Assembly (NCBI GenBank): GCA_016182875.1
Contig: JACPFQ010000004.1
Span: 183,556-247,555 of the forward strand
Reading direction: 5' to 3'
Length of the DNA stretch: 64,000 nt
DNA from: Candidatus Doudnabacteria bacterium
Lineage (GTDB): Bacteria; Patescibacteriota; Doudnabacteria; UBA920; O2-02-FULL-48-8
Positions 9,550 through 61,618 of this stretch are shown piece by piece. Under the pieces are notes generated by a model. That model was not told where the DNA came from, made no database searches, and saw only the letters and a list, made by a program, of their open reading frames with translations. Position numbers and translations under genes: made by a program. Every line of letters starts with the position of its first letter. Within the stretch, counting starts at the first letter, position 1.

Positions 9550-9817
9550 AATTGCTGGATTATTGTATCATTTTAACGAAAGGAAATAAATCAATGGCAG
9601 AAACAGAGTCAAGGCCGCCGATGGAAGCAAAACCGCAGCAGTCGCCTCCCCCTCCTACGCGGGAGCAGAGGAGGGAGTGGGACCGTCCAAAGCCAGGCGA
9701 GCTTGCAGATAACCCCGAACATTGGCGGGAAAAAGACTAAAATTTTGAATCAGTGCTGCGAAAGTCAAAAAGGAGCATCAGGCTCCTCCAGTTTCAGATA
9801 CTTTACAAAAAAAGGAT

Positions 9818-11370: not shown

Positions 11371-11691
11371 TTAGGCGGCGGCTGCGCGCTCTGCGGCGTA
11401 GTAGGCGCGACGGGCCTCGCGCGGATCAGGAAGCTGAATGCCTGCCTCAAACGTCCCGGCTTCCAGGACACCAGGAAGGGCACGAAGCAGGACCAAATCT
11501 TCTTCTCCACGGAAGTCCGGGAACTCGATGTTCAGCGAAAGCGGATTCTGGTCGCTGGCCTCAGCGGGAAGAATGTCCATACGGCCTGCTCGATCGCGGG
11601 CATCTCCACGGACTCCGATGTAGCACTGACGATAGTACTCCACAGTTTTCCTATCAGTGCAGCGCATGTAAACGAGCTGGCGCCAAGCCAT
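11371..11691 (-). CDS. GC-rich orphan hypothetical protein (106 aa)
   Basis: AGGAGG RBS 5 nt before ATG 11691; own terminator; ~62% GC versus ~43% flanks. Confidence 0.45.
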   Translation of the reverse strand: MAWRQLVYMRCTDRKTVEYYRQCYIGVRGDARDRAGRMDILPAEASDQNPLSLNIEFPDFRGEEDLVLLRALPGVLEAGTFEAGIQLPDPREARRAYYAAERAAAA

Positions 11692-11836
11692 GGGATCCTC
11701 CTTCTCATGCAAAACGAGCCACTCTAAAAGAGTGACTCAGATGTTCGGAAACGGGTCGATATATAATTGCTGTTTGTTTTTGCTGAAGTAAGAAGCATTA
11801 AACGCTCCTTACTTTAAGTATATACCCCTTATATTA

Positions 11837-11972
11837 GCGGTCAAGACCTATCACTGCTTCGCCAAGGCTTCGCAGTGCTAGCACTGCTTAGTTTCAACGG
11901 CGTAGTGCAAGCAGTGTCCTGCGTAGCTTTCTTGTTCTTCGTAGCTTCAGCGAAGAAGAAAGCGAAGCAGGG
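11837..11972. repeat. MITE-like palindromic element flanked by 9-bp direct repeat cttatatta (11828..11836 and 11973..11981)
   Basis: Shares cactgcttcgccaaggcttcgcagtgctagca...gcagtgtcctgcgtagcttt...gcgaagcagg with 60920..60980; internal inverted repeats. Confidence 0.55.
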
Positions 11973-11973
11973 C

Positions 11974-12990
11974 TTATATTAGGCCAATTTTTTCTTTGAC
12001 CTCTGCCAGAGTTTTGCCGGCGATTTTTTGAGCTTTTGAGGCACCTTCCGCCAGAATTTGTGTCAGTTGTTTTTTGTTAGCCATTATTTTTGTTTTTTTG
12101 TTTCGAAATTCCGCGAAGTGTTCGGCGATTTTTTTTGCGAGAGATTCCTTAAGTTCGTTGTATTTAGTAAAATCTTTTACTCGACTGGTGCCCCCGAATT
12201 GTTCGAGCAAGAATTTCAGGTTCTCGACTCCGGGCGAACCTTTTTTGGTATCAGTGGCAGTCACCGCTTTCTTGAGCTTGCGTAAAATTTCTTGGGGGGA
12301 GTCGTCCAGCATCAGCGCTTCATCGCCAGTCTTGCTCATTTTCTTGGTCGGGTCTGACAAGCTCATGATACGCAGCGGCTTTTGTAAGTAGGTCTTGGGT
12401 ATTGGAAATGTTTCGCCGAATCTGTTGTTAAATAATTTAGCTGTGTGTTTTGTTAAATCAATATGAGCTACTTGATCCTCTCCCACGGGTACCAGCGTTG
12501 GTTTGTAAAGTAATATATCGGCCGCCATTAAAGAGGGATAATTCAACAGTCCAGCATTAACATGAAATTTCATGTCGTTCATTGCATTAACTATAAATTG
12601 TCTTCTCGCCGTGACGTTATTTTCTATTTTATATTCTGACAATTTAGCTTTTTCAGTAAATTGAGGCATCCTTAATAATTCACCTAAGGATGTTAAGCAA
12701 TTAAAAATCCAGGCGAGTTCCGTGTGTTCCAAAACTTGGCTCTGCAAGAAGAAAACTGATTTATCTGGGTCAATGCCAGCAGCCAAATATTCCGCAGCGA
12801 CTTCCAAAGTATTTTGAGAAAGCTCTTTGGGTTCAAATGGCGTGGTTAAGGCATGGAGGTCGGCAATAAAAAAGAAGCACTCGTGGCCGCCTGAATTCTG
12901 CAGTTCCACAAATTGCTTCAACGCGCCCAGATAGTTGCCGACGTGAAGTTTGCCCGACGCTCGGATGCCTGAGAGAATTCGTTCTTTCAT
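11974..12990 (-). CDS. trpS: tryptophanyl-tRNA synthetase
   Basis: HVGNYLG (HIGH) and KMSKT (KMSKS) class I motifs. Confidence 0.9.
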   Translation of the reverse strand: MKERILSGIRASGKLHVGNYLGALKQFVELQNSGGHECFFFIADLHALTTPFEPKELSQNTLEVAAEYLAAGIDPDKSVFFLQSQVLEHTELAWIFNCLTSLGELLRMPQFTEKAKLSEYKIENNVTARRQFIVNAMNDMKFHVNAGLLNYPSLMAADILLYKPTLVPVGEDQVAHIDLTKHTAKLFNNRFGETFPIPKTYLQKPLRIMSLSDPTKKMSKTGDEALMLDDSPQEILRKLKKAVTATDTKKGSPGVENLKFLLEQFGGTSRVKDFTKYNELKESLAKKIAEHFAEFRNKKTKIMANKKQLTQILAEGASKAQKIAGKTLAEVKEKIGLI

Positions 12991-13020: not shown

Positions 13021-13099
13021 TCCCAGCCTCCCCTTATATTAAGGGGAGGAGTAATAAATTCCCCCTCTTAAAATAAGAGGGGGCTAGGGGGAGTTATTA
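13021..13099. repeat. C-rich/G-rich twin-hairpin element (cccagccYcccc...ccccctcttaaaataagaggggg...gggggagttat)
   Basis: Related copy 18972..19039 inside uvrC; similar short cccctc/gagggg hairpins at 53798..53822 and 54046..54070. Confidence 0.5.
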
Positions 13100-17254: not shown

Positions 17255-19174
17255 TTAAAGACTGGCCTTTATTTTTTCAGCCGCGGAGTTCCCGACAACG
17301 CGCGCCAGCTCTCCCAATGTCGCTTTGCGAATTTGAGCGACAGACCCAAAGGTTGTCAGCAGCATTTTTTTCTTGGCCGGTCCAATGCCTGCGATTTCAT
17401 CCAAAGTCGAGAGGCGCGAGGCTTTGGATCTGAGCTTTCGGTGATAGGTGATGGCAAAACGATGAGCCTCGTCGCGAATGCGTTGCAGCAAAAAAAGCGC
17501 TATGGAGTTAGGTTGTAAGATTAAGGATTTAGGTTGACCAGGCACAAAGATTTCTTCGAGCTTTTTGGCCAGTCCGATGGTTGCTATATTCAGGTTATAC
17601 ATATGTATAACCTTTTTAGCGACAGAGAGCTGACCCTTACCGCCATCGATGAGGATCAAATCGGGAAGGGGCCAGGTCTTGTCATTGCGAGGAGCCGCAG
17701 GCGACGCGGCAATCTCTTTCTGAGATTGCTTCGCTTCGCTCGCAATGACAGAGCGCATAAATCTACGAGTAAGCATTTCCCTCATCATGGCATAATCATC
17801 CGGCGTGTCTTGGAACTTAATCTTAAACCGCCGATAGTCTTCCTTTTTCGGCCGCCCGAAATCAAACACAATCATTGACCCAACCGCGTTTTTCCCCTGG
17901 ATATTGGAAATATCATACGCTTCGATTCTTCCGGGCAGGGTTTTCAAATTGAGGACGCGCTGAAGTTCTTTGAGCGCGCTCATGAGTCTTGCCTCCTCCA
18001 AAAGCTTCTTGTCTGACTGAGATTCCAGATATTGCTTGGCGTTTTCCTGGCCAAGTTTAATAAGCTTAAGCTTTTGGCCTTTTTTAGGCACTGAGATAAA
18101 GGGCACCTTTTTGGTAGAGAACCCTGACAGTAAAGGTGCCCTTTGTTTTACCGGCGCCAAAATTTCTTTCGGCCAGCTCGAAGCCTCCAAATAATACCTC
18201 GGCAGAAATTCGCTAAGGATTTCGGCAATGCTTGCTCCTTTAGTATTTTCAAGAATAAAATTTTCCTGGCGGATGAGCTTGCCTTCGCGGACTACAAAAA
18301 GGTTCACAGCAGCCGCTGTGGCTTCTATGTAAACGCTGAACACGTCCTGGTCAATTTTTTTTGGATAGACAAGTTTCTGCCTTTCGAGCACGCGGTTAAG
18401 CGCATAAATTTGGTCGCGGACTCTTGCCGCTTTTTCAAACAATTTGGCTCGGGCGTAGCCCTGCATCCGCAATTTTAGGTGTTTAAGAATTTCTGACTGC
18501 CGGCCCTGCAGAAATTCCATGATTTTATTTATGTAGTTTTTTCGGTACTCTTCCAAGGAGATTTTGCCTATACATACTCCCGGGCATTTGCCGATATGGT
18601 AGTAAAAACACGGATGGTTGCTGATTTTTTTGTTGCCGCAGTAAGGGAAAATTTTTCTTAGTAGCCGTAGCGTGTCTTTGATGGAAGCGCTGGAAGTATA
18701 GGGTCCGAAGTAGCGCGCCGATTTATCGGCAGATTTTCTCTCATAGCTAATCGTGGGAATTTCGTCGGCCAAATTGATTTTGACGAATAGGTAATTTTTG
18801 TCATCCCGCAGTAAAATGTTGTACTTGGGTTTGAGCTGTTTGATGAAATTGTTTTCCAGAAGCAGGCTCTCCAGCTCATTGTCGGTAACGGTGTAATCGA
18901 AATCTTTGATCTGCGTGATCATGAGCTGGATTCTCGGCGATAACTCCCCCGCTTTGCCAAGGGCTTTGTCACCCAGCCCCCGGCGGGTAGTGAGGGAGGG
19001 AGTTTCTCTTAATTTAAGAGGGGGTTGGGGGGAGTTATAAAAATGCGAACGCACGCGATTCTTAAGATTAATCGCTTTGCCGACATAAAGAACCAGCCCC
19101 TTGGCGTCTTTGAATGTATAGACACCCGGCTTGCTGGGAAGTTCTTTGATTTTGTCAGCTAGAGCTTTTTGCAT
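17255..19174 (-). CDS. uvrC: excinuclease ABC subunit C
   Basis: GIY-YIG (PGVYxFKD...LYVGKA), UvrC homology, RNase H-like/HhH C-terminus; start set at Met 19174 (the upstream 15 codons lie in a repeat). Confidence 0.9.
   Translation of the reverse strand: MQKALADKIKELPSKPGVYTFKDAKGLVLYVGKAINLKNRVRSHFYNSPQPPLKLRETPSLTTRRGLGDKALGKAGELSPRIQLMITQIKDFDYTVTDNELESLLLENNFIKQLKPKYNILLRDDKNYLFVKINLADEIPTISYERKSADKSARYFGPYTSSASIKDTLRLLRKIFPYCGNKKISNHPCFYYHIGKCPGVCIGKISLEEYRKNYINKIMEFLQGRQSEILKHLKLRMQGYARAKLFEKAARVRDQIYALNRVLERQKLVYPKKIDQDVFSVYIEATAAAVNLFVVREGKLIRQENFILENTKGASIAEILSEFLPRYYLEASSWPKEILAPVKQRAPLLSGFSTKKVPFISVPKKGQKLKLIKLGQENAKQYLESQSDKKLLEEARLMSALKELQRVLNLKTLPGRIEAYDISNIQGKNAVGSMIVFDFGRPKKEDYRRFKIKFQDTPDDYAMMREMLTRRFMRSVIASEAKQSQKEIAASPAAPRNDKTWPLPDLILIDGGKGQLSVAKKVIHMYNLNIATIGLAKKLEEIFVPGQPKSLILQPNSIALFLLQRIRDEAHRFAITYHRKLRSKASRLSTLDEIAGIGPAKKKMLLTTFGSVAQIRKATLGELARVVGNSAAEKIKASL
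17682..17750. repeat. ~69-bp palindromic element (GCGAGCGAAGCGAAGCAATCTC core) lying in frame inside uvrC
   Basis: tcattgcgag...gcaatctctttctgagattgc...ctcgcaatga; encodes ...SVIASEAKQSQKEIAAS...; same core at 30043, 57501, 28989, 32062. Confidence 0.55.
18972..19039. repeat. C-rich hairpin element (family of 13021..13099) lying in frame in the uvrC GIY-YIG region
   Basis: cccagcccccgg...ctcttaatttaagaggggg ttggggggagttat; adds ~25-30 residues (SPQPPLKLRETPSLTTRRGLGDKALGKAGE) between RVRSHF and IQLMITQI. Confidence 0.5.
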
Positions 19175-19179
19175 GGAGA

Positions 19180-19240
19180 TAGATTGCTTCGTCGGCTTCG
19201 CCTCCTCGCAAATGCGCATTCGCGAGCGGACGAAGTCCGC
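19180..19240. repeat. ~60-bp repeat, copy A (inverted copy at 23337..23400)
   Basis: tagattgcttcgtcggcttcgcctcctcgcaaatg(g)cgcat... present in opposite orientation 4.1 kb away. Confidence 0.55.
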
Positions 19241-23336: not shown

Positions 23337-23400
23337 ACTGCTTCGCTAATCGCTCGCAGATGCGCCATTTGCGAGGAGGCGAAGCCGACGAAGCAATCTA
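23337..23400. repeat. ~60-bp repeat, inverted copy of 19180..19240
   Basis: Reverse complement of gtgtttagattgcttcgtcggcttcgcctcctcgcaaatggcgcat... Confidence 0.55.
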
Positions 23401-23544
23401 AACACATGCAAAACATTTTTTCTAAACTTAGCCATCATACCAACCCTTTCCCGCTTGGAGAGGTTGGTTAGGTATGCTTTAAGAAAAATTTTTCTTCCCA
23501 ACCCCTGCAAGCCTGCCGGGGTTTTTAATTAAGCTTGATATTTT

Positions 23545-28943: not shown

Positions 28944-28988
28944 AAATTATGAGCAGACTGCCAATTAATATTGTTGGATTACAGTAAT

Positions 28989-29046
28989 TGTCATCCTGAG
29001 CGAAGCGAAGGATCTCATGAGATTCTTCACTGCGTTCAGAATGACA
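28989..29046. repeat. palindromic element (tgtcatcctgagcgaagcgaaggatctc / gagattc...gcgttcagaatgaca)
   Basis: Variant of the GCGAAGCGAAG palindromic family; supplies the spurious N-terminal codons of the grpE ORF. Confidence 0.55.
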
Positions 29047-29550
29047 AACACGAATATGTCAGACGAGAATAATCAAACCCAGGAAGCTACAGTTGAGGAA
29101 CTGCAGGCTAAGAACGAAGAATTTTTGAATAACTGGAAGCGCGTAGCGGCGGACTTGGAAAACTTCCGCAAACGCCGCGAAGCGGAGAATAAGGAATTGC
29201 TGGAATTCGCCAAGGAAATGGCGGCAATCAAGCTTCTGCCTTCCCTGCAAAGTCTGGAACAGGTCTTGAAGTTCGCGCCGAATGATGAGAAGTACAAAGG
29301 CTGGCTCGACGGCCTCAAAGCTACGATCTTGCAGCTCGAGAAGGCCATGGAAGAGCTGGGCTTGAAAAAAATCAACACGGTCGGCGAGAATTTCGACCAC
29401 GAACTGCACGAAGCCGTGGAAGAAGCGGAAGGAGAAGACGGTAAAGTTTTAAAAGAATTGCAACCGGGTTTTATGCTGCATAACAAAGTAATCATCCCGG
29501 CCAAGGTCGTGGTCGGAAAAAAGTTAAGCGATTCGAATATAGCGAATTGA
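29041..29550 (+). CDS. grpE: nucleotide exchange factor GrpE
   Basis: GrpE coiled-coil plus C-terminal beta domain similarity; start uncertain (29041 or 29056). Confidence 0.85.
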   Translation: MTNTNMSDENNQTQEATVEELQAKNEEFLNNWKRVAADLENFRKRREAENKELLEFAKEMAAIKLLPSLQSLEQVLKFAPNDEKYKGWLDGLKATILQLEKAMEELGLKKINTVGENFDHELHEAVEEAEGEDGKVLKELQPGFMLHNKVIIPAKVVVGKKLSDSNIAN

Positions 29551-30042: not shown

Positions 30043-30131
30043 TGTCTTTGCGAGCGAAGCGAAGCAATCTCATCCCGAGAAAAGAGATTGCTTCGTCGAC
30101 CGGCAATTCGCCGGTCTCCTCGCAAAGACAG
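30043..30131. repeat. 89-bp nested palindromic element in the dnaK 5' region
   Basis: tgtctttgcgag|cgaagcgaagcaatctc...gagattgcttcg|tcgaccggcaattcgccggtc|tcctcgcaaagacag, three nested stems. Confidence 0.6.
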
Positions 30132-32053: not shown

Positions 32054-32061
32054 CACGAAAG

Positions 32062-32119
32062 TGTCATCCTGAACGCAGTGAAGGATCCCATGAGATTCAC
32101 AGCGAAGCTCAGAATGACA
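32062..32119. repeat. palindromic element (tgtcatcctgaacgcagtgaaggatccc / gagattcacagcgaagctcagaatgaca)
   Basis: Same family as 28989..29046; just 3' of dnaK. Confidence 0.55.
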
Positions 32120-50564: not shown

Positions 50565-51653
50565 CTAATCATTTTTATCTACCAGAATTGCATTTGTCAA
50601 GCCGATCTTCTTGAGGATCGCCAAACTTTCTTCCTCATTTGCCCATCGCGGACAGCAATAATCTTCAATGATTACCGGCTTAAGTTCGATTTTTTTAATT
50701 TTTTCTTTTTCAAAAGTTATTGTTACAGTCAAACCTTCTCTAGTTTCCTGGCTCCACATCTGATCGAACACAAAATTGCCCAAGGAATAAAATATCCATT
50801 TACCCTTATATTGTTCGATGGTTTGAATCCAATGCGGATGGTGGCCGACAAATAAGTCCGCACCCGCCTCAATCGCCTGGTGTACGCGTTCAACATTTAC
50901 GGCGTCGGGCTTTCTTTGGTATTCCGTACCCATATGCGCCGACACAATCACGAAATTAGCTTTTAGTTTAAGGCTTTGAATATCTTGCGCCACCGAGGCT
51001 GTGTCATTCCAATTACACACTAATGGGTTTGATTTTTCGCCCAGCCTCGACTCGCCGTCGAGGCGAGGCGGGCCGCCGTCGTTGAAAGCGGCGTAAGAAT
51101 AAGCCAGGAAACCAAATTTTGTCTCATCCTGAGTAATCAGCACGCCTTCATGACAATTTGCTCCTGTACCAACAGGCAGAATATCATGAGCCTTGAGTAA
51201 TGCATAAGTAAAGTTAAGCCCTTCCTGCCCCTGATCCAAACTATGATTATTGGCCGCGGCCAGAACATCAAAGCCGGCCGCAGTTAGCCCCGCAACGCTT
51301 TTGGGGTCAGCATTGAAAGCCAAGCTGTTCGGGACAAAATGCCGGCCTTCATCATTGAAAGGAGATTCCAAATTCGCAAAGCTTATGTCGGATTGCGAAA
51401 TCTGTTCCAGCACGTTTTTAAACGGCAAGGAAAAATCCCCAGCTTTATAAATTTTATCAGCGACGTTACGCGAAAGCATAATGTCGCCGGCAAAGAACAG
51501 GGTGATAGTTGATGGTTGATAGTTGATAGAGTCCGTAGCGTGCCCATTCATCGGCTCAGGAGAAACCGTGCTCTTAGGTTTGACCAAAATCGCCGCGACC
51601 AGAAGCGCTGCAGTGATGATCGCCGTATAAATTATTTTATCTCGTTTTAACAT
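50565..51653 (-). CDS. CapA/PGA_cap family metallophosphoesterase (poly-gamma-glutamate capsule biosynthesis-like)
   Basis: N-terminal TM; metallophosphatase motifs (GDIM, NLE, GHHPH). Confidence 0.7.
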   Translation of the reverse strand: MLKRDKIIYTAIITAALLVAAILVKPKSTVSPEPMNGHATDSINYQPSTITLFFAGDIMLSRNVADKIYKAGDFSLPFKNVLEQISQSDISFANLESPFNDEGRHFVPNSLAFNADPKSVAGLTAAGFDVLAAANNHSLDQGQEGLNFTYALLKAHDILPVGTGANCHEGVLITQDETKFGFLAYSYAAFNDGGPPRLDGESRLGEKSNPLVCNWNDTASVAQDIQSLKLKANFVIVSAHMGTEYQRKPDAVNVERVHQAIEAGADLFVGHHPHWIQTIEQYKGKWIFYSLGNFVFDQMWSQETREGLTVTITFEKEKIKKIELKPVIIEDYCCPRWANEEESLAILKKIGLTNAILVDKND

Positions 51654-52791
51654 AGTGTGAGCCGCCCAAATTCTTAACCCGGCCCTTCAATTCGAGCATG
51701 GTCAAAAGAGTGTTGACTTCGGCGGCCGGTTTTTTTATGCTGCGGACAAGCTCATCAATATGCGTGGGTTCCTTAGACAGAAGCTCAAGCAACACTTTTT
51801 CTTCGGGCGCAGTTGGTTCAAGGGGCACCGCTTGATTTAAATTCAAGTCGATATTTAGCTCTTGGATTATATCTCGGGCGGAAGTGACCAGCTTGGCGCC
51901 CCGCTTGATAAGCTCGTTGGTCCCCTGGCTGACTTCGGAAAAAATAGAGCCGGGGACCGCAAATACCTCCCGATTTTGCTCCAAGGCGTAGTTGGCGGTA
52001 ATCAAAGCGCCGCTCTCCAGGTCGGCTTCAATGACCAAGGTTCCCAGGCTTAAGCCGGAAATAATCCGGTTCCGAATGGGGAAATTTTGTTTCTGCACGA
52101 CCATCCCCAATGGATATTCGGAAACCAGGCACCCCTGTTGAATAATTTTTTGAGCCAGCAGAAAGTTGGCTCTTGGGGAGATGCTGCTGTTATCAAGGGA
52201 AGACGCGAGCACTGCTATCGGACTTCCGCCGGAGTTGAGAGTCGTGTTATGCGCTTCGGCATCCACGCCAAAAGCCAGGCCCGAAACGATGACCAGATTG
52301 CTTGCCGCCAGAGTTGCCACCAGTTCTTGGGTGATATGTTTTCCATATTGGGTCATTTTTCTCGTGCCCACTACTGCCAGTCCGGGCTGGCGCAGCAGTT
52401 GAACATTTCCCCGTATATAAAGGATGGGCGGCGGCTGGCTGATTTCGGACAGCAGCGGCGGATAATCTTCATCTCCGGTAAGGACGACCTCGATTCCCAA
52501 ACTTTGAAGTTTTTCCCACGATTGTTCTGGCTTGATTTCGTTTCTTTTTGATATAATGGCATCCACGCTCTTTTGGTTAAGCCCGGCCTGCCGCAAATCC
52601 GACCCCGAAGCCTGCCAGGCTGAAGCGTAATCTCCGAAGAAGGCCTGCAGTTTCATGAGGCTTATCGGGCCCAAATCCGGAATCAGGTTAAAAGCGTTGC
52701 CGTAAATTTTTTCCGCCTTCGCTAAAGCTTCGGCGGACAGGGTTTCTTCTTTGGTTTCTTGGTTGACTTTTTCTGGAATTTTTGCTACCAT
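51637..52791 (-). CDS. dprA: DNA processing protein DprA/Smf
   Basis: Rossmann-like DprA core (GxAxGVD..AH), C-terminal winged helix. Confidence 0.85.
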   Translation of the reverse strand: MVAKIPEKVNQETKEETLSAEALAKAEKIYGNAFNLIPDLGPISLMKLQAFFGDYASAWQASGSDLRQAGLNQKSVDAIISKRNEIKPEQSWEKLQSLGIEVVLTGDEDYPPLLSEISQPPPILYIRGNVQLLRQPGLAVVGTRKMTQYGKHITQELVATLAASNLVIVSGLAFGVDAEAHNTTLNSGGSPIAVLASSLDNSSISPRANFLLAQKIIQQGCLVSEYPLGMVVQKQNFPIRNRIISGLSLGTLVIEADLESGALITANYALEQNREVFAVPGSIFSEVSQGTNELIKRGAKLVTSARDIIQELNIDLNLNQAVPLEPTAPEEKVLLELLSKEPTHIDELVRSIKKPAAEVNTLLTMLELKGRVKNLGGSHYVKTR

Positions 52792-55453: not shown

Positions 55454-56113
55454 ATGCCAAGTCATGGAACCCCCCTCTCCGCAACGCATTTGGCGCCGTT
55501 TGTTAGTACGGCGACCAAAGCCCTGATCCTGGTCGCGAATGATCTGGGACAGGGAGTCCAGGAAAGCTGGGCGAACCGGAGCGAAGAAATGCAGTCGCTC
55601 TTCCGCCAGGCGTTTCTGCCGCCGCAACAGACGGGCCAGCCGCTCATGGCGCGCTATATCGTGCCGATCCCGAACATCGCGGTGAACTACGACCGCAAGT
55701 TCGTGGACGCGGCAATGGCCGGTGGTCCGCAGACCCCGTCCAACTACGATGTCCTCAAAGTCGGCGACCTCTACGTCGCCCGGCACAAGGGCATCGTCCG
55801 GCGCAACATCACGATCGTGAACTTCGGGCTGGACGTCAGCTCGGAACAGGCGCAGGAGTTCGGGCAGGCGCACAAACTCGGTCGCACGCTCGATCCATGG
55901 GAGTGCTTCTCCATCGGCGAGCACCGGCCCATGCTCAATCGCGAGCTCGGCTTCGACTACATGGCCGTTGTCTCGTTGGAGAAGTGCGAGTTCGGCGGTG
56001 AGTCGCGAGTCTGCAGCTGCTGGTGGGACGAGCGGGAGCGCGAGGCCGCTCTCAACTGGTTCACCGACGGCTGGCACGTCCGCTGCTGGTTCGGTTTCGT
56101 CCGCGAGTCCTAG
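55454..56113 (+). CDS. DGR variable (target) protein; C-terminal ~38 residues encoded by VR
   Basis: C-terminus ...CEFGGESRVCSCWWDEREREAALNWFTDGWHVRCWFGFVRES lies in the VR; GC-rich (~60%). Confidence 0.8.
   Translation: MPSHGTPLSATHLAPFVSTATKALILVANDLGQGVQESWANRSEEMQSLFRQAFLPPQQTGQPLMARYIVPIPNIAVNYDRKFVDAAMAGGPQTPSNYDVLKVGDLYVARHKGIVRRNITIVNFGLDVSSEQAQEFGQAHKLGRTLDPWECFSIGEHRPMLNRELGFDYMAVVSLEKCEFGGESRVCSCWWDEREREAALNWFTDGWHVRCWFGFVRES
55989..56104 (+). repeat. DGR variable repeat (VR), 116 bp
   Basis: Gap-free alignment to TR 56439..56554 with 17 mismatches, every one at a TR adenine. Confidence 0.85.
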
Positions 56114-56130
56114 GGCTCTGGGGATCTTTG

Positions 56131-56163
56131 GGTTTGAAACTCTGACACTTTGAGTTTCAGACC
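56131..56163 (+). other. GC-clamped hairpin immediately 3' of VR (DGR homing-associated stem-loop candidate)
   Basis: ggtttgaaactc-tgacacttt-gagtttcagacc. Confidence 0.5.
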
Positions 56164-56438
56164 CTGGGTCCCTTTTTCTTTTTTTAAAATTTTGATATCA
56201 TTTTTTCAGATATTAGATCAGTCCGCGGCCATGGTTTCGGACAATCGAATTCCGGAGTTTGATCAGCCAGAATGAGATCGGGCACGCTTGATCTTAGTGT
56301 GTTTTTCAAACTTCCCAAAAGATGAAGAAACTCGGTATAAGGCATTGGCGGATTAGTGTCGCTTAGCGAGATGCTATCCCAAATAAAATTCAACCCCAAG
56401 AGCATTTGAGGGGCGGTGGCATAGATGATGCTTTCTAC

Positions 56439-56554
56439 AATTCGGCGGTAAGTCGCAAGTCTGCAACTGCTGGTGGAACGAGCAGAAGCGCAAGGCCAAT
56501 CTCAACTGGTTCACCAACGACTGGAACGACAACTACTGGTTCGGTTTCGTCCGC
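56439..56554 (+). repeat. DGR template repeat (TR), 116 bp
   Basis: See VR; contains 30 A of which 17 differ in VR (13 A>G, 3 A>C, 1 A>T). Confidence 0.85.
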
Positions 56555-56568
56555 TACTTTCTTCGGCT

Positions 56569-56889
56569 TTATCCCGCCTTTGCGGCGGGATTTTCTTTGC
56601 TGGCTTGTCTATACCAGCCGCCAAGCATTTTGCCGATTTCATTCAGCGGTTCAGAAAGAGCGATGTATTTTTTGGTATCCAAGGCTTTAATCTCCCAGAG
56701 AATCTGCAAGAATAGTTTGAGCAAATCGAGCTTGATTATGGTTTTTTGCAAATATGCAGGTTTCTGCGGCTTCGATGAGTATCCAGCGATAAAACTTAAT
56801 TCAATTGTGCTTAGAAACAATATGTCAATTTTTGCGCCAAGAGTATATTTCGAAGATTTTAAAATGTGCGGCATGAAGCCATACCACAT
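56569..56889 (-). CDS. avd: Avd-like four-helix-bundle protein (23S rRNA IVS-protein family), antisense to the rest of the DGR
   Basis: C-terminal ...LNEIGKMLGGW... and FIAGYSS match the IVS-protein/Avd consensus (..NIAEG..R / ..EEIxKMLNGL..). Confidence 0.55.
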   Translation of the reverse strand: MWYGFMPHILKSSKYTLGAKIDILFLSTIELSFIAGYSSKPQKPAYLQKTIIKLDLLKLFLQILWEIKALDTKKYIALSEPLNEIGKMLGGWYRQASKENPAAKAG

Positions 56890-56966
56890 TTTGTAAGCAG
56901 AAATAAGATGTTGCAGAATCGGAAGATTCCGTTGGGGGGGGGGGCGTTAACAGAGGCAAAATTCAG

Positions 56967-58043
56967 TTGGCTCATGGTTTTGACGAGATTATTTCTGTTG
57001 AGAATCTGCTCTTGGCTTGGCAAGAGTTTATCCGCGGCAAGAGGAATAAGCCGGATGTCCAACTCTTTGCTCACGCTTTGATTGATAATATTTTACAGCT
57101 TCACAATGATTTAGCCAACAAGACTTATCGGCACGGCGGATATTACCAGTTTAAGATTTCCGATCCCAAGCCGCGGGATATCAGCAAAGCCTCGGTTCGC
57201 GATAGGCTTTTGCATCATGCGATATATCGAATCCTGTATCCATTCTTTGACCGGACATTTATCGCTGATTCTTTTTCCTGCCGGGTTGATAAAGGCACGC
57301 ACAAGGCGGTCAACCGATTGCTGGCAATGTTCAGAAAAGCAAGCAAGAACAATACCCGCACATGCTGGGTTCTCAAATGCGACATCAGGAAGTTCTTTGC
57401 CAGCATAGATCATGATGTTTTGAAAAATATTTTAGCTAGACATGTTCCTGACATAGATATGCTTTGGCTTCTAGGGAATATTATTGATAGCTTTGGGTCA
57501 GATTGCTTCGTCGGCCGCCAGACTAAACCCCGGCCAGAAAACCGGCCTCCTCGCAATGACATTAAATCTGTCTTTGCGAGCGAAGCGAAGCAATCTCATA
57601 ACCAGGGTCTTCCCTTAGGCAACCTAACCTCCCAGCTCTTCGTCAACATATATATGAACGAGTTTGACCAGTTTGTGAAGCATAAACTCAAGGTTAAGCA
57701 TTATATACGCTATGCCGATGATTTTATAATTCTATCTCCAAGCGAAGAGGAACTCACTGCAATACTGTCACGTATTGCAGTACTCCTCAAGCAAGAGCTT
57801 AAACTGCGGCTTCATCCACATAAAGTCACTCTTAAAACCTTTGCTTCAGGCATTGATTTTTTAGGGTGGGTTAATTTTCCCCATCATAGAGTGCTACGCA
57901 CAGCCACGAAAAAACGGATGCTTAAGCGTATCCGTGTAAATTCAACCAATGAAACCTTGCAATCTTATTTAGGACTTTTAAAGCACGGGAATACTTTTCA
58001 AAAAATTTTCGCCAGCCCGCAGCAATGGCCGCGGGGAAGTTGA
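56967..58043 (+). CDS. DGR-type reverse transcriptase
   Basis: RT motifs: KCDIRKFFASIDH (2), GLPLGNLTSQLFVNIYMNEFD (4, DGR-specific LGNLTSQ), YIRYADDFIIL (5, YADD), GIDFLGW (7); TTG start after AGAGG RBS. Confidence 0.85.
   Translation: MAHGFDEIISVENLLLAWQEFIRGKRNKPDVQLFAHALIDNILQLHNDLANKTYRHGGYYQFKISDPKPRDISKASVRDRLLHHAIYRILYPFFDRTFIADSFSCRVDKGTHKAVNRLLAMFRKASKNNTRTCWVLKCDIRKFFASIDHDVLKNILARHVPDIDMLWLLGNIIDSFGSDCFVGRQTKPRPENRPPRNDIKSVFASEAKQSHNQGLPLGNLTSQLFVNIYMNEFDQFVKHKLKVKHYIRYADDFIILSPSEEELTAILSRIAVLLKQELKLRLHPHKVTLKTFASGIDFLGWVNFPHHRVLRTATKKRMLKRIRVNSTNETLQSYLGLLKHGNTFQKIFASPQQWPRGS
57501..57597. repeat. ~97-bp palindromic element (GCGAAGCGAAG family) lying in frame within the RT gene between motifs 3 and 4
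   Basis: gattgcttcgtcggccgcc...ccggcctcctcgcaatgaca...tgtctttgcgagcgaagcgaagcaatctc; encodes ...GSDCFVGRQTKPRPENRPPRNDIKSVFASEAKQSH... Confidence 0.5.
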
Positions 58044-60844: not shown

Positions 60845-60921
60845 GGTCACTTAGCTCAGCTGGTTAGAGCGCGTCGTTCACATCGACGAGGCCGCTGGTT
60901 CGAGTCCAGCAGTGACCACCA
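60845..60921 (+). tRNA. tRNA-Val (anticodon CAC), CCA encoded
   Basis: Cloverleaf; anticodon loop TTCACAT; T-arm GGTTCGAGTCC. Confidence 0.9.
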
Positions 60922-60980
60922 CTGCTTCGCCAAGGCTTCGCAGTGCTAGCAGTGTCCTGCGTAGCTTTACGCGAAGCAGG
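60920..60980. repeat. short copy of the MITE-like element of 11837..11972, abutting the tRNA-Val 3' end
   Basis: cactgcttcgccaaggcttcgcagtgctagcagtgtcctgcgtagctttacgcgaagcagg begins within the tRNA CCA. Confidence 0.5.
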
Positions 60981-60991
60981 ACAGCATATTT

Positions 60992-61618
60992 ATGGACGAG
61001 TCTGAATCATCAAATAGCAATACAAGGAACTCTTCCGGCTTGAGCGGTATCTTTGTTTTCGTCTGGGACTTTTTGAAGGTGATTATCATCGCGCTCGCAA
61101 TCATTTTGCCGGTGCGTTATTTTTTATTCCAGCCTTTTATAGTTTCAGGTTCATCCATGGAGCCAAATTTTTCCCACGGCGAGTATTTAATCATTGACGA
61201 AATATCTTATCGGTTCCAAGATCCCACTCGCGGTGATGTGGTCGTGTTGCGCTTTCCCAAGGATCGCAAGCAATTTTTTATCAAACGGATTGTGGGCTTG
61301 CCAGGCGAAACAGTAACCATAGACAACGGCCGGGTGACAATCAAGAATAAGCAGCATCCTCAGGGTGAGGTTTTGGAAGAAAAGTATCTGCCAAACCAGG
61401 GGCTAACCTTCCCTCACAATACCTCACTGGTGGGCGGGAAAAAAAGCCTGACGCTGGGCGCGGATGAATATTTGGTTTTGGGAGACAACCGCTTGGCTTC
61501 TTCCGATTCGCGTGATTGGGGAATCCTGGAAAGAAAAGATATGATAGGGAAAGTTTTTATTCGCGTATTGCCGTTGACCGAGTTTGAGCATTTTAAGACC
61601 CCCGCTTATAGCTTTTAG
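60992..61618 (+). CDS. lepB: signal peptidase I
   Basis: Catalytic SM (GSSMEP), K in RFQDPTRGD region, GDNR...SxDSR box E. Confidence 0.85.
   Translation: MDESESSNSNTRNSSGLSGIFVFVWDFLKVIIIALAIILPVRYFLFQPFIVSGSSMEPNFSHGEYLIIDEISYRFQDPTRGDVVVLRFPKDRKQFFIKRIVGLPGETVTIDNGRVTIKNKQHPQGEVLEEKYLPNQGLTFPHNTSLVGGKKSLTLGADEYLVLGDNRLASSDSRDWGILERKDMIGKVFIRVLPLTEFEHFKTPAYSF

What the first reader, a model, noticed from the sequence alone, without database searches (positions are those of the whole stretch)
11828..11981. MITE-like insertion with 9-bp target-site duplication; sister copy fused to the tRNA-Val 3' end
A 136-bp palindrome-rich segment (11837..11972) is flanked by a perfect direct repeat cttatatta (11828..11836 and 11973..11981), a footprint typical of a transposon/MITE target-site duplication. 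A shorter version of the same element (60920..60980) begins within the encoded CCA of tRNA-Val. This suggests either tRNA-3'-end targeting or a tRNA-derived origin.
Basis: seen in the sequence. Interest (0 to 1): 0.5.

Follow-up and report, generated by a model that had tools for sequence, protein, structure and literature searches.

The report
tRNA-linked hairpin repeat, ectopic copy
The segment after trpS is an extra, gene-less copy of a paired-hairpin DNA module that, in many bacterial phyla, normally sits right at the 3' end of tRNA or tmRNA genes next to a tiny GIY-YIG nuclease gene; this tRNA link was not found in the literature searched.

Summary
A 10-bp direct repeat, CTTATATTAG (one base longer than reported), flanks 11838-11972. 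It is rare by chance (about 0.002). A shorter sister copy starts at the CA of the encoded CCA of tRNA-Val.

It is not a classical MITE. Both copies are inverted pairs of roughly 25-nt GCTTCGC/GCGAAGC hairpin units. The 22-nt core, CTGCTTCGCCAAGGCTTCGCAG, occurs exactly in at least 119 genome stretches from many phyla. In 27 of 124 hits a tRNA/tmRNA 3' end faces it; in only 2 does a 5' end.

In Patescibacteria, including Doudnabacteria, the full module reads: tmRNA or tRNA, CCA, arm1, terminator and promoter, arm2, then a 79-aa single-domain GIY-YIG nuclease gene. A long-range helix starting at the CA covaries.

The tRNA-Val copy is this module without the nuclease gene. The trpS copy is a lineage-specific secondary insertion, absent from three syntenic relatives. 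Its duplication keeps trpS intact.

Long flanking repeats are not general in the family; other copies show 4-9 bp or none.

The closest known system is the Ssn nuclease with its NTS/SRM hairpin repeats (2025). Its published motif is not matched, and that paper does not mention tRNA.

The insertion mechanism is inferred, not shown.

The parts
11828..11837 (.). Left copy of the 10-bp direct repeat CTTATATTAG (the duplicated copy).
11838..11851 (.). 14-nt linker (CGGTCAAGACCTAT) unique to copy A. On the minus strand it supplies the -35-like hexamer TTGACC.
   Evidence: It does not recur next to other copies.
11817..11844 (-). Promoter-like site TTGACC-16 nt-TATACT (10 of 12 matches) spanning the left repeat copy. 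It faces the small ORF at 11371-11712.
   Evidence: consensus match only.
11852..11877 (+). Arm1 hairpin CACTGCTTCGCCAAGGCTTCGCAGTG. The 22-nt core is at 11854-11875. It carries two GCTTCGC heptamers.
11882..11916 (+). Middle hairpin CACTGCTT...AAGCAGTG, absent from copy B. It looks like a collapsed version of the long-range P1 helix of the full modules.
   Evidence: (D5).
11917..11972 (+). Arm2 hairpin TCCTGCGTAGC...GCGAAGCAGGG with a nested hairpin (GCTTTCTT..TTCTTCG / CGAAGAA..AAGAAAGC) in its loop. It is the inverted partner of arm1.
11973..11982 (.). Right copy of the direct repeat. It equals codons Leu-Ile-stop of trpS plus one flanking base (11973), read on the minus strand, and is ancestral sequence.
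11974..12990 (-). trpS (tryptophan-tRNA ligase). It is intact and ends ...KIGLI like most of the fetched orthologues.
11371..11712 (-). Small GC-rich ORF downstream of trpS. It occupies the same position as 101-117-aa ORFs in related genomes. It has no Pfam family.
60845..60921 (+). tRNA-Val(CAC) with encoded CCA at 60919-60921.
60920..60945 (+). Arm1 of copy B, identical to A's arm1. Its first two bases are the CA of the tRNA's CCA.
60948..60954 (+). AGCAGTG, the 3' strand of helix P1. It pairs with CACTGCT at 60920-60926.
60955..60981 (+). Arm2 of copy B (TCCTGCGTAGCTTTACGCGAAGCAGGA). It is 24/25 identical to arm2 of a Saccharibacteria module (L073).
60992..61618 (+). lepB (signal peptidase I). 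It starts 10 nt after arm2, in the place the GIY-YIG gene holds in full modules.

Best explanation
A (11838-11972) and B (60920-60981) are gene-less copies of a paired-hairpin module.

The module is an inverted pair of roughly 25-nt units. Arm1 reads CTGCTTCGC-loop-GCTTCGCAG and arm2 reads CTGCGWAGC-loop-GCGAAGCAG. On either strand the order is a TTC-type hairpin followed by a GAA-type hairpin.

The module's usual home, in Patescibacteria and in at least one alphaproteobacterium, is directly after the CCA (or acceptor end) of a tmRNA or tRNA gene and just upstream of a 79-80-aa single-domain GIY-YIG nuclease gene. B is that module at tRNA-Val, with the internal spacer and the nuclease gene missing. 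A is a secondary copy inserted at the very end of trpS. The insertion duplicated 10 bp of target, so trpS kept its last two codons and stop.

Shown here:
- the anatomy of both copies;
- the cross-phylum family;
- the tRNA/tmRNA 3'-end association;
- the link to a GIY-YIG gene;
- the covarying helices;
- the rarity of the repeat by chance;
- the absence of the element at the syntenic site in relatives.

Inferred, by analogy with the Ssn nuclease and its NTS/SRM hairpins:
- The arms extrude as hairpins when DNA is single-stranded. The GCGAAGC strand contains the classic very stable d(GCGAAGC) mini-hairpin.
- The arms are recognition or cleavage sites for the partner nuclease, which would be encoded elsewhere in this genome.
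- Nuclease-made single-strand breaks plus host repair synthesis copy the module into staggered breaks at exposed gene ends. This would give short target duplications of variable length (4-10 bp).

Local side effects at trpS would be three stable hairpins after the stop codon, and a -35-like hexamer placed 16 nt from a TATACT box facing the next ORF.
For: Copy identity:
- A and B share exact 26-nt and 19-nt blocks.

Cross-phylum family:
- The 22-mer has at least 119 exact hits in species-representative genomes. The phyla include Verrucomicrobiota, Alphaproteobacteria, Planctomycetota, Bacteroidota, Omnitrophota, Armatimonadota and several Patescibacteria.
- It also occurs at gene junctions in phage contigs.

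tRNA/tmRNA association:
- In 27 of 124 hits a tRNA/tmRNA 3' end faces the hairpin within 150 nt, against 2 with a 5' end facing. 13 hits abut within 2 nt.

GIY-YIG link:
- GIY-YIG ORFs (PF01541, E=4e-18) sit next to the arms in L042, L072, L073, L077, L110, L112 and L114.
- A sample not chosen by the 22-mer gives the same picture. Seven distinct loci were found through the protein alone, three of them Doudnabacteria. All have tmRNA or a tRNA directly upstream with the arm1...arm2 layout; in L134 arm1 is hidden by a run of N.

Conserved structure:
- Helix P1 starts in register at the CA of CCA and ends at arm2 in 12 of 13 modules, with four compensatory variants.
- The formal count gives 95.5% of cells paired and 5 pairs changed on both sides, reached by 0 of 500 shuffles.

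Insertion at trpS:
- Repeat rarity is about 0.002.
- Syntenic relatives lack the element.

Mobility of single units:
- Two in-frame hairpin inserts occur in the TrpRS gene of another Doudnabacteria and are absent from the other fetched orthologues.

Junction duplications elsewhere:
- ATGA...ATGA is seen in 7 of 23 doublets.
- TCTGATG is duplicated in phage contig L129.
- 7-9 bp duplications occur in Brevundimonas copies and L071.

Analogy:
- Ssn is a single-domain GIY-YIG nuclease specific for single-stranded DNA. Its genes are flanked by hairpin repeats (PMC11893778).
Against: - No GIY-YIG gene lies in the 64-kb window. The rest of this genome could not be read, so the partner nuclease is assumed.
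- The arms do not match the published SRM search sequence.
- Whether the 79-aa proteins belong to the Ssn clade (cd10448) could not be tested. Their best solved relative is a UPF0213 protein.
- Only A has a long flanking repeat among 23 doublets, and its left copy is 14 nt away from arm1.
- No true empty site at the sequence level was found. The one metagenome hit to the predicted junction is an unrelated locus.
- A hydrolytic nuclease alone cannot transpose DNA, so the copying step is speculative.
- The conserved helices could instead serve an RNA function.
- The locus set was selected by an exact 22-mer.
- The alignment for one search was assembled by hand from chosen segments.
Confidence: 0.55

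Rival explanations
1. Classical MITE. This would be a deletion derivative of an insertion sequence, moved in trans by a DDE transposase that makes a fixed 9-bp target duplication.
For: - A perfect flanking repeat that is unlikely by chance.
- The two ends are inverted copies, CTGCTTCGC...GCGAAGCAG.
- The element is small, non-coding and present in two copies.
Against: - B and 21 other doublets lack a 9-10-bp duplication.
- The left repeat copy is 14 nt outside the inverted repeat.
- None of 57 window ORFs is a transposase.
- The units are near-identical across phyla and flank a nuclease gene, not a transposase gene.
- The units also occur singly, nested inside other hairpins and in frame within genes.
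Confidence: 0.07
2. REP/REPIN-type element. The hairpin doublets would be spread by a RAYT (IS200/IS605-like Y1) transposase through single-stranded intermediates.
For: - Imperfect palindromes of 20-40 nt arranged as inverted doublets that can form one long hairpin.
- Mostly intergenic positions and a mosaic, BIME-like build.
Against: - No Y1 transposase was found in the window.
- The gene next to the arms is GIY-YIG in every case examined: 7 loci found by the 22-mer and 7 found by the protein.
- REP families are species-specific as a rule (general knowledge), whereas this core is identical across phyla.
- Y1 transposition makes no target duplication.
Confidence: 0.07
3. Functional transcript-end structure that is not mobile. 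The hairpins would be RNA 3'-end processing, stabilising or insulating elements selected after tRNA, tmRNA and mRNA ends. A and B would resemble each other through selection or gene conversion, and the repeat would be a coincidence.
For: - Position right after gene ends: tRNA, tmRNA, and the stop codons of trpS and operon genes.
- Strong folding.
- Covarying helices.
- In full modules arm2 lies in the 5' leader of the GIY-YIG mRNA, downstream of a TATAAT box.
Against: - No U-tract follows the hairpins.
- In full modules a terminator lies between the two strands of P1, so P1 would seldom be in one RNA.
- The hairpins also occur in frame inside coding sequences.
- No Rfam family matches.
- The exact 22-mer in distant phyla with variable outer stems fits a spreading element better.
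- Repeat rarity is about 0.002.
- This view is not exclusive of the main explanation.
Confidence: 0.15
4. Local rearrangement. A would have arisen by ectopic gene conversion or repair synthesis templated on B or another copy. The 10-bp repeat would then be a pre-existing or microhomology-generated feature, not a target duplication.
For: - The linker between the left repeat and arm1 is unexplained by a clean insertion.
- CCCCTTATATTA occurs a third time 1.2 kb away, in a hairpin loop.
- Flanking repeats vary in length across the family.
Against: - The right copy is ancestral coding sequence ending most of the fetched orthologues.
- Duplication of exactly the gene end is what an insertion with a staggered break predicts.
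- The same pattern recurs at other gene junctions.
Confidence: 0.12

Closest known systems
Ssn nucleases with NTS/SRM hairpin repeats (Chenal et al. 2025, PMC11893778)
   Same: - A small single-domain GIY-YIG gene flanked by 20-50-nt hairpin repeats.
- The repeats are dispersed in many gene-less copies, mostly between genes and in many phyla.
- The repeats have an orientation set by non-palindromic flanks.
- The authors note the IS-like layout of repeat, gene, repeat.
   Different: - The arms here fail the published SRM search sequence.
- The core is a double GCTTCGC unit arranged as an inverted doublet.
- The module is anchored at tRNA/tmRNA 3' ends, with a helix that includes the terminal CA. 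The paper does not mention tRNA, target duplications or Patescibacteria.
- The cd10448 membership of the 79-aa proteins is untested.
REP / BIME and REPIN-RAYT systems
   Same: - Short imperfect palindromes and inverted doublets that can form a long hairpin.
- Mosaic clusters and intergenic location.
- A presumed single-stranded DNA stage.
   Different: - The partner gene is a GIY-YIG nuclease, not a Y1 transposase.
- The core is identical across phyla.
- Short target duplications occur in some copies.
Rickettsia palindromic elements (RPE)
   Same: Hairpin units that can sit in frame inside protein-coding genes, as in the TrpRS gene of another Doudnabacteria.
   Different: RPEs are longer (about 100-150 bp, from general knowledge). 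They are not described as anchored at tRNA ends or paired with this gene.
Classical MITEs (for example Correia/NEMIS elements)
   Same: Small, non-coding, with inverted ends. One copy here has a flanking direct repeat.
   Different: - No constant target-duplication length.
- No related transposase.
- The ends are themselves hairpins.
- The sequence is conserved across phyla.
d(GCGAAGC) mini-hairpin DNA (PMC13037366)
   Same: Each arm carries two copies of this heptamer on one strand. The motif is known to form an unusually stable DNA hairpin.
   Different: That work concerns the physical chemistry of the motif, not a genomic repeat family.

Membership tests
MITE | Terminal inverted repeats | tested here: inconclusive
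   Arm1 and the reverse complement of arm2 share CTGCTTCGC...CGCAG. However, each 'end' is itself a hairpin unit, and in A the left end is 14 nt inside the repeat copy.
MITE | Target-site duplication of constant length at every copy | tested here: not met
   A has 10 bp. B has none. The other 21 doublets have at most 6 bp, or ATGA at gene junctions. Solo units show 4-9 bp.
MITE | A related autonomous element with a transposase gene | tested here: not met
   No transposase family appears in the 57 window ORFs. The gene found beside the arms elsewhere is GIY-YIG. The rest of this genome was not available.
Ssn / SRM system | Repeat matches the SRM search sequence HGTCWYN(0-2)YYVSBRHN(0-5)WNVSBRGN(0-2)RNCYNB | tested here: not met
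   There is no match in A or B. The window has one match, at chance level, at 9705.
Ssn / SRM system | Hairpin repeats flank a small single-domain GIY-YIG gene | tested here: met
   This holds in 14 loci of other genomes, three of them Doudnabacteria. It is not shown for this genome, because the window holds no such gene.
Ssn / SRM system | The protein belongs to the cd10448 clade (BLASTP E<1e-10 to N. meningitidis SsnA) | not testable with these tools
   Neither CDD nor the SsnA sequence was available. Pfam gives PF01541 only, NCBIfam gives nothing above cut-off, and the best solved relative is 1zg2, a UPF0213 protein.
Ssn / SRM system | The nuclease cuts single-stranded DNA next to the hairpin, and does not cut dsDNA or RNA | not testable with these tools
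   This needs biochemistry.
REP / REPIN-RAYT | Imperfect palindromes of 20-40 nt, often as inverted doublets | tested here: met
REP / REPIN-RAYT | Association with a RAYT (Y1 transposase) gene flanked by the repeats | tested here: not met
   None was found in the window. The flanked gene in related loci is GIY-YIG.
Rfam RNA families | Match to a curated covariance model | tested here: not met
   Only tRNA and tmRNA are matched. Nothing covers the arms.

The most novel reading that the evidence does not exclude
The GCTTCGC double-hairpin module and its 79-aa GIY-YIG partner would form a previously undescribed, cross-phylum, nuclease-driven (transposase-free) mobile unit. It would home to the 3' ends of tRNA and tmRNA genes and to gene termini. 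A helix built on the terminal CA of the tRNA would be part of target recognition or of the element's life cycle. Gene-less doublets such as A and B would be its satellites.
Probability: 0.25. Interest if true: 0.8.

Novelty: new variant of a known kind. Interest (0 to 1): 0.6.

Why it matters
Hairpin repeats paired with minimal GIY-YIG nucleases were only recognised in 2025, and how they spread is an open question.

This locus and its relatives add three things:
- a distinct repeat type that the published motif does not capture;
- a fixed address at tRNA/tmRNA 3' ends, seen in Patescibacteria, Alphaproteobacteria and an Opitutia genome, with a covarying helix that includes the terminal CA;
- insertion footprints that preserve gene ends, namely trpS here and overlapping stop/start junctions elsewhere.

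Together these give concrete substrates and junctions for testing whether such nucleases mobilise their repeats. They also flag a source of spurious small ORFs and in-frame inserts in the annotation of candidate-phyla genomes.

Tried and rejected
- **Empty-site search.** The predicted junction ATACCCCTTATATTAGGCCAAT gave one metagenome hit (L121). That locus has no other similarity to the window and is not a trpS locus. I treat it as chance.
- **Source contig look-up.** Looking up the window's own TrpRS found nothing on record, so the rest of the 327-kb contig could not be read.
- **Closest relative.** The closest TrpRS is only 72% identical, so only synteny-level 'empty sites' were possible.
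- **Known RNA families and motifs.** Rfam gave nothing at gathering or permissive thresholds. The SRM regex gave no match.
- **Mobile replicons.** BLAST of B against plasmids and phages gave no match at that sensitivity.
- **Literature.** Searches by sequence motif, GIY-YIG plus tmRNA or tRNA, MITE, and YhbQ/UPF0213 found only the Ssn paper and the mini-hairpin chemistry.
- **Linker as a decayed tRNA 3' end.** I considered that the 14-nt linker was carried along from a tRNA. The similarity to tRNA-Val is weak and the linker recurs nowhere, so I dropped the idea.
- **Leaderless GIY-YIG mRNAs.** I first thought these mRNAs start right after arm2. The protein-ascertained loci put a TATAAT box upstream of P1-3' and arm2, so arm2 lies in a 5' leader instead.
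- **Small ORF homology.** BLASTP of the small ORF against its positional counterpart in L001 showed no similarity.
Full report
**1. What is at the coordinates**

The window comes from a Candidatus Doudnabacteria genome; its TrpRS is 100% identical to a protein so named.

CTTATATTA lies at 11828-11836 and 11973-11981. The repeat extends one base further, to CTTATATTAG. The 9-mer occurs three times in the window against 0.3 expected. The third copy, at 13033, is the loop of a hairpin upstream of trpS.

The right copy overlaps trpS (11974-12990, minus strand). Read on that strand it is CTA-ATA-TAA-G: Leu-Ile-stop of trpS plus the flanking base at 11973. Most of the fetched orthologues end ...KIGLI, so this copy is ancestral sequence.

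I took the homology-defined element (11852-11971) and searched 30 nt on each side. A repeat of 10 bp or more turns up at 0.16% of random window positions. A repeat of 9 bp or more turns up at 0.8% of positions with AT-rich flanks.

**2. The sister copy**

Blocks of 26 nt and 19 nt match exactly, and only, at 11852/60920 and 11912/60950. In the alignment, A equals B plus two additions: a 30-nt hairpin (11882-11916) and a hairpin nested in the loop of the last stem.

tRNA-Val(CAC) is 60845-60921 with an encoded CCA at 60919-60921. The shared sequence begins at C60920-A60921. Both copies fold far better than shuffled sequence on either strand.

Each copy is an inverted pair of units:
- arm1, CACTGCTTCGCCAAGGCTTCGCAGTG;
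- arm2, TCCTGCGTAGC...GCGAAGCAGGA.

Each unit is a stem-loop with two GCTTCGC (or GCGAAGC) heptamers. The two arms can also pair with each other; this is the lowest-energy fold of B. GCGAAGC and GCTTCGC together occur 30 times in the window against about 7 expected, many of them between genes.

**3. The family is huge and crosses phyla**

Hosts include Verrucomicrobiota, Caulobacterales and other Alphaproteobacteria, Planctomycetota, Bacteroidota, Omnitrophota, Armatimonadota, Kiritimatiellota, Zixibacteria, Saccharibacteria and other Patescibacteria.

The outer stem varies but stays complementary.

Three contexts recur:
- directly after a tRNA or tmRNA 3' end;
- at overlapping stop/start junctions (ATGA) inside operons, with the junction duplicated on both sides;
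- nested in other hairpin repeats.

The core also occurs in phage contigs at gene junctions. There ATGA (L128) or TCTGATG (L129) is duplicated.

**4. The tRNA link is general**

Thirteen of 124 hits abut an ARAGORN-called tRNA or tmRNA within 2 nt on the same strand. In six more, the far arm abuts a tRNA on the other strand.

Counting any tRNA or tmRNA end within 150 nt, 27 hits have a 3' end facing the hairpin and 2 have a 5' end facing it. Many different tRNAs are involved: Ala, Arg, Leu, Ser, Val, Pro, Gly, and tmRNA.

**5. The partner gene**

In several Saccharibacteria and other loci the order is tRNA or tmRNA, arm1, spacer, arm2, and then a small ORF. That ORF is a single-domain GIY-YIG protein of 79-80 aa (PF01541, E=4e-18). 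Its best solved relative is a UPF0213 protein. An alphaproteobacterial locus (L112) has the same layout after tRNA-Pro.

To remove the bias of choosing loci by the 22-mer, I searched with the protein alone. The family is 65-84% identical across Patescibacteria, and three hits are named Doudnabacteria. I then read seven distinct loci.

All seven have tmRNA or a tRNA directly upstream:
- tmRNA in L122, L124, L131, L132 and L136;
- tRNA-Ser in L123;
- tRNA-Ala in L134.

The layout is the same in each: acceptor end/CCA, arm1, TGCRNGCAC, a terminator-like hairpin with a T-run, a TATAAT box, AGCAGTG, arm2, 8-25 nt, then the start codon. In L134 arm1 is hidden by a run of N.

B fits this layout exactly. 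It lacks the spacer, and lepB stands where the nuclease gene would be. The window itself has no GIY-YIG gene. None of its 57 ORFs is a transposase, integrase or Y1 transposase.

**6. Conserved structure**

The sequence starting at the CA of the tRNA end pairs with the sequence that ends right at arm2 (helix P1). The pairing is 7-14 Watson-Crick pairs, in register in 12 of 13 modules.

There are four compensatory variants:
- CATTGCTTC/GAAGCAATG;
- CACTGCTCC/GGAGCAGTG;
- CACTTCTTC/GAAGAAGTG;
- CACTTCTAC/GTAGAAGTG.

I built an alignment by hand from the P1 and arm2 segments of 13 modules. In it, 95.5% of cells pair and 5 pairs change on both sides; none of 500 shuffles and no slid register reaches that. 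The caveat is that I chose the segments and derived the structure from these same sequences.

In full modules a terminator lies between the two P1 strands. P1 is therefore more likely to matter in single-stranded DNA than in one RNA, but this is not settled.

**7. Is A an insertion?**

Three related Doudnabacteria loci keep the order RNase J, trpS, small ORF, then a convergent hydrolase. Their trpS-to-ORF spacers are 38, 43 and about 190 nt and carry no GCTTCGC hairpin. In the window the spacer is about 260-280 nt, of which 145 nt are the element plus one repeat copy.

Single units are demonstrably gained in this phylum. The TrpRS gene of another Doudnabacteria carries two in-frame hairpins, TCCGCCGAAGCCTCGGCGAAGGCGGA and CCCGCCGAAGCCTTGGCGAAGGCGGG. 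The other fetched orthologues lack them.

A is therefore best read as a lineage-specific insertion whose 10-bp duplication rebuilt the end of trpS.

Three points count against a clean transposon model:
- Among 23 doublets, only A has a long flanking repeat.
- Solo units show an excess of adjacent repeats of 5 bp or more (13 against about 3 expected). Several of these, however, belong to one Brevundimonas sub-family.
- A's left repeat copy is separated from arm1 by a 14-nt linker that recurs nowhere.

The predicted empty junction was found once in metagenomes, but in an unrelated locus.

**8. Local consequences**

No hairpin in A or B is followed by a U-tract; the terminator scan reported only marginal sites.

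On the minus strand the linker gives TTGACC, 16 nt upstream of TATACT. This promoter-like site faces the small ORF at 11371-11712. lepB starts 10 nt after B, so it is probably read through from the tRNA-Val promoter. That is inference.

**9. Comparison with what is known**

The closest described system is the Ssn family (PMC11893778). These are single-domain GIY-YIG nucleases that cut only single-stranded DNA next to a hairpin repeat (NTS/SRM). Their genes are flanked by those repeats, and the authors compare the layout with an insertion sequence and with REP/RAYT.

The arms here do not fit their SRM search sequence. The paper does not mention tRNA, target duplications or Patescibacteria. Whether the 79-aa proteins fall in the Ssn clade could not be tested.

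The GCGAAGC heptamer is the classic very stable DNA mini-hairpin (PMC13037366).

I file the finding as a new variant of a known kind. It works like an Ssn-type or REP-type hairpin repeat, with a distinct unit, a doublet build and a tRNA/tmRNA anchor.

**10. Verdict**

- The copying mechanism (nuclease-made single-strand breaks plus host repair, giving variable short duplications) is inferred by analogy and from footprints.
- I put 0.55 on the overall explanation and about 0.3 on the mechanistic step.

Noticed in passing
window 55454-58043: A diversity-generating retroelement. The parts are a target ORF (55454-56113, +) with a variable repeat at 55991-56104, a template repeat at 56441-56554, a bAvd-like ORF (56569-56889, -) and a reverse transcriptase (56967-58043, +; RVT_1, E=8e-25). 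Every mismatch within the repeat has A in the template copy on the + strand.
   Followed up: partly
window 57567-57601 (inside the RT ORF at 56967-58043): A GCGAAGC-type hairpin repeat (TGTCTTTGCGAGCGAAGCGAAGCAATCTCA) appears to lie in frame within the reverse transcriptase gene, translated as ...PPRNDIKSVFASEAKQSH.... It was not compared with orthologues.
   Followed up: no
window 17718-17752, 19167-19214, 23366-23413, 28988-29047, 30043-30073, 32059-32119: Other families of GCGAAGC hairpin repeats with GTCAT...AATC-like flanks. By eye they look like the NTS/SRM repeats of the Ssn paper, but they fail its search sequence. The copy at 17718-17752 lies inside the uvrC ORF, where the RNase H domain is 12 aa longer than its model.
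   Followed up: partly
L138 1501-2541 (TrpRS gene of Doudnabacteria RIFCSPHIGHO2_01_FULL_45_18, P0008): Two in-frame hairpin inserts of 26 nt each (…CCGCCGAAGCCTYGGCGAAGGCGG…), giving SSAEASAKAD and EPARRSLGEGG. They are absent from the other fetched orthologues.
   Followed up: yes
window 13030-13090 (between RNase J and trpS): Two C-rich/G-rich hairpins (CCCCCTC...GAGGGGG and CCTCCCC-TTAATATAA-GGGGAGG, minus strand). The loop of the second repeats the 12-mer CCCCTTATATTA found at the left repeat copy of A.
   Followed up: no
window 11371-11712: The small ORF downstream of trpS is 56-65% G+C in a 48% G+C window and has no Pfam family. Fast-evolving ORFs of 101-117 aa occupy the same position in relatives.
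   Followed up: partly
L015, L037, L084, L088, L092, L094, L118 (Verrucomicrobiota and others): Here the 22-mer sits beside tandem heptamer-like repeats (GTCGTCC/GTCATCC...), suggesting another composite repeat family.
   Followed up: no
L120 about 1026-1250; L134 about 1026-1200: Tandem arrays. L120 has three head-to-tail copies of a 102-nt arm1-arm2 doublet at a gene junction. L134 has a duplicated AGCAGTG-arm2-spacer unit upstream of the GIY-YIG gene.
   Followed up: no
window 51637-52791: dprA (DNA processing protein A) is present, so the organism probably handles incoming single-stranded DNA. This is relevant if the hairpins are targets of a nuclease specific for single-stranded DNA.
   Followed up: no
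L122 2360-2373, L124, L131, L132, L136: In the tmRNA-linked modules the 'CCA' before arm1 is the end of the acceptor stem plus the discriminator base, not an encoded CCA tail. In the window's tRNA-Val it is the true encoded CCA. The module therefore follows the string CCA rather than a fixed functional position.
   Followed up: partly
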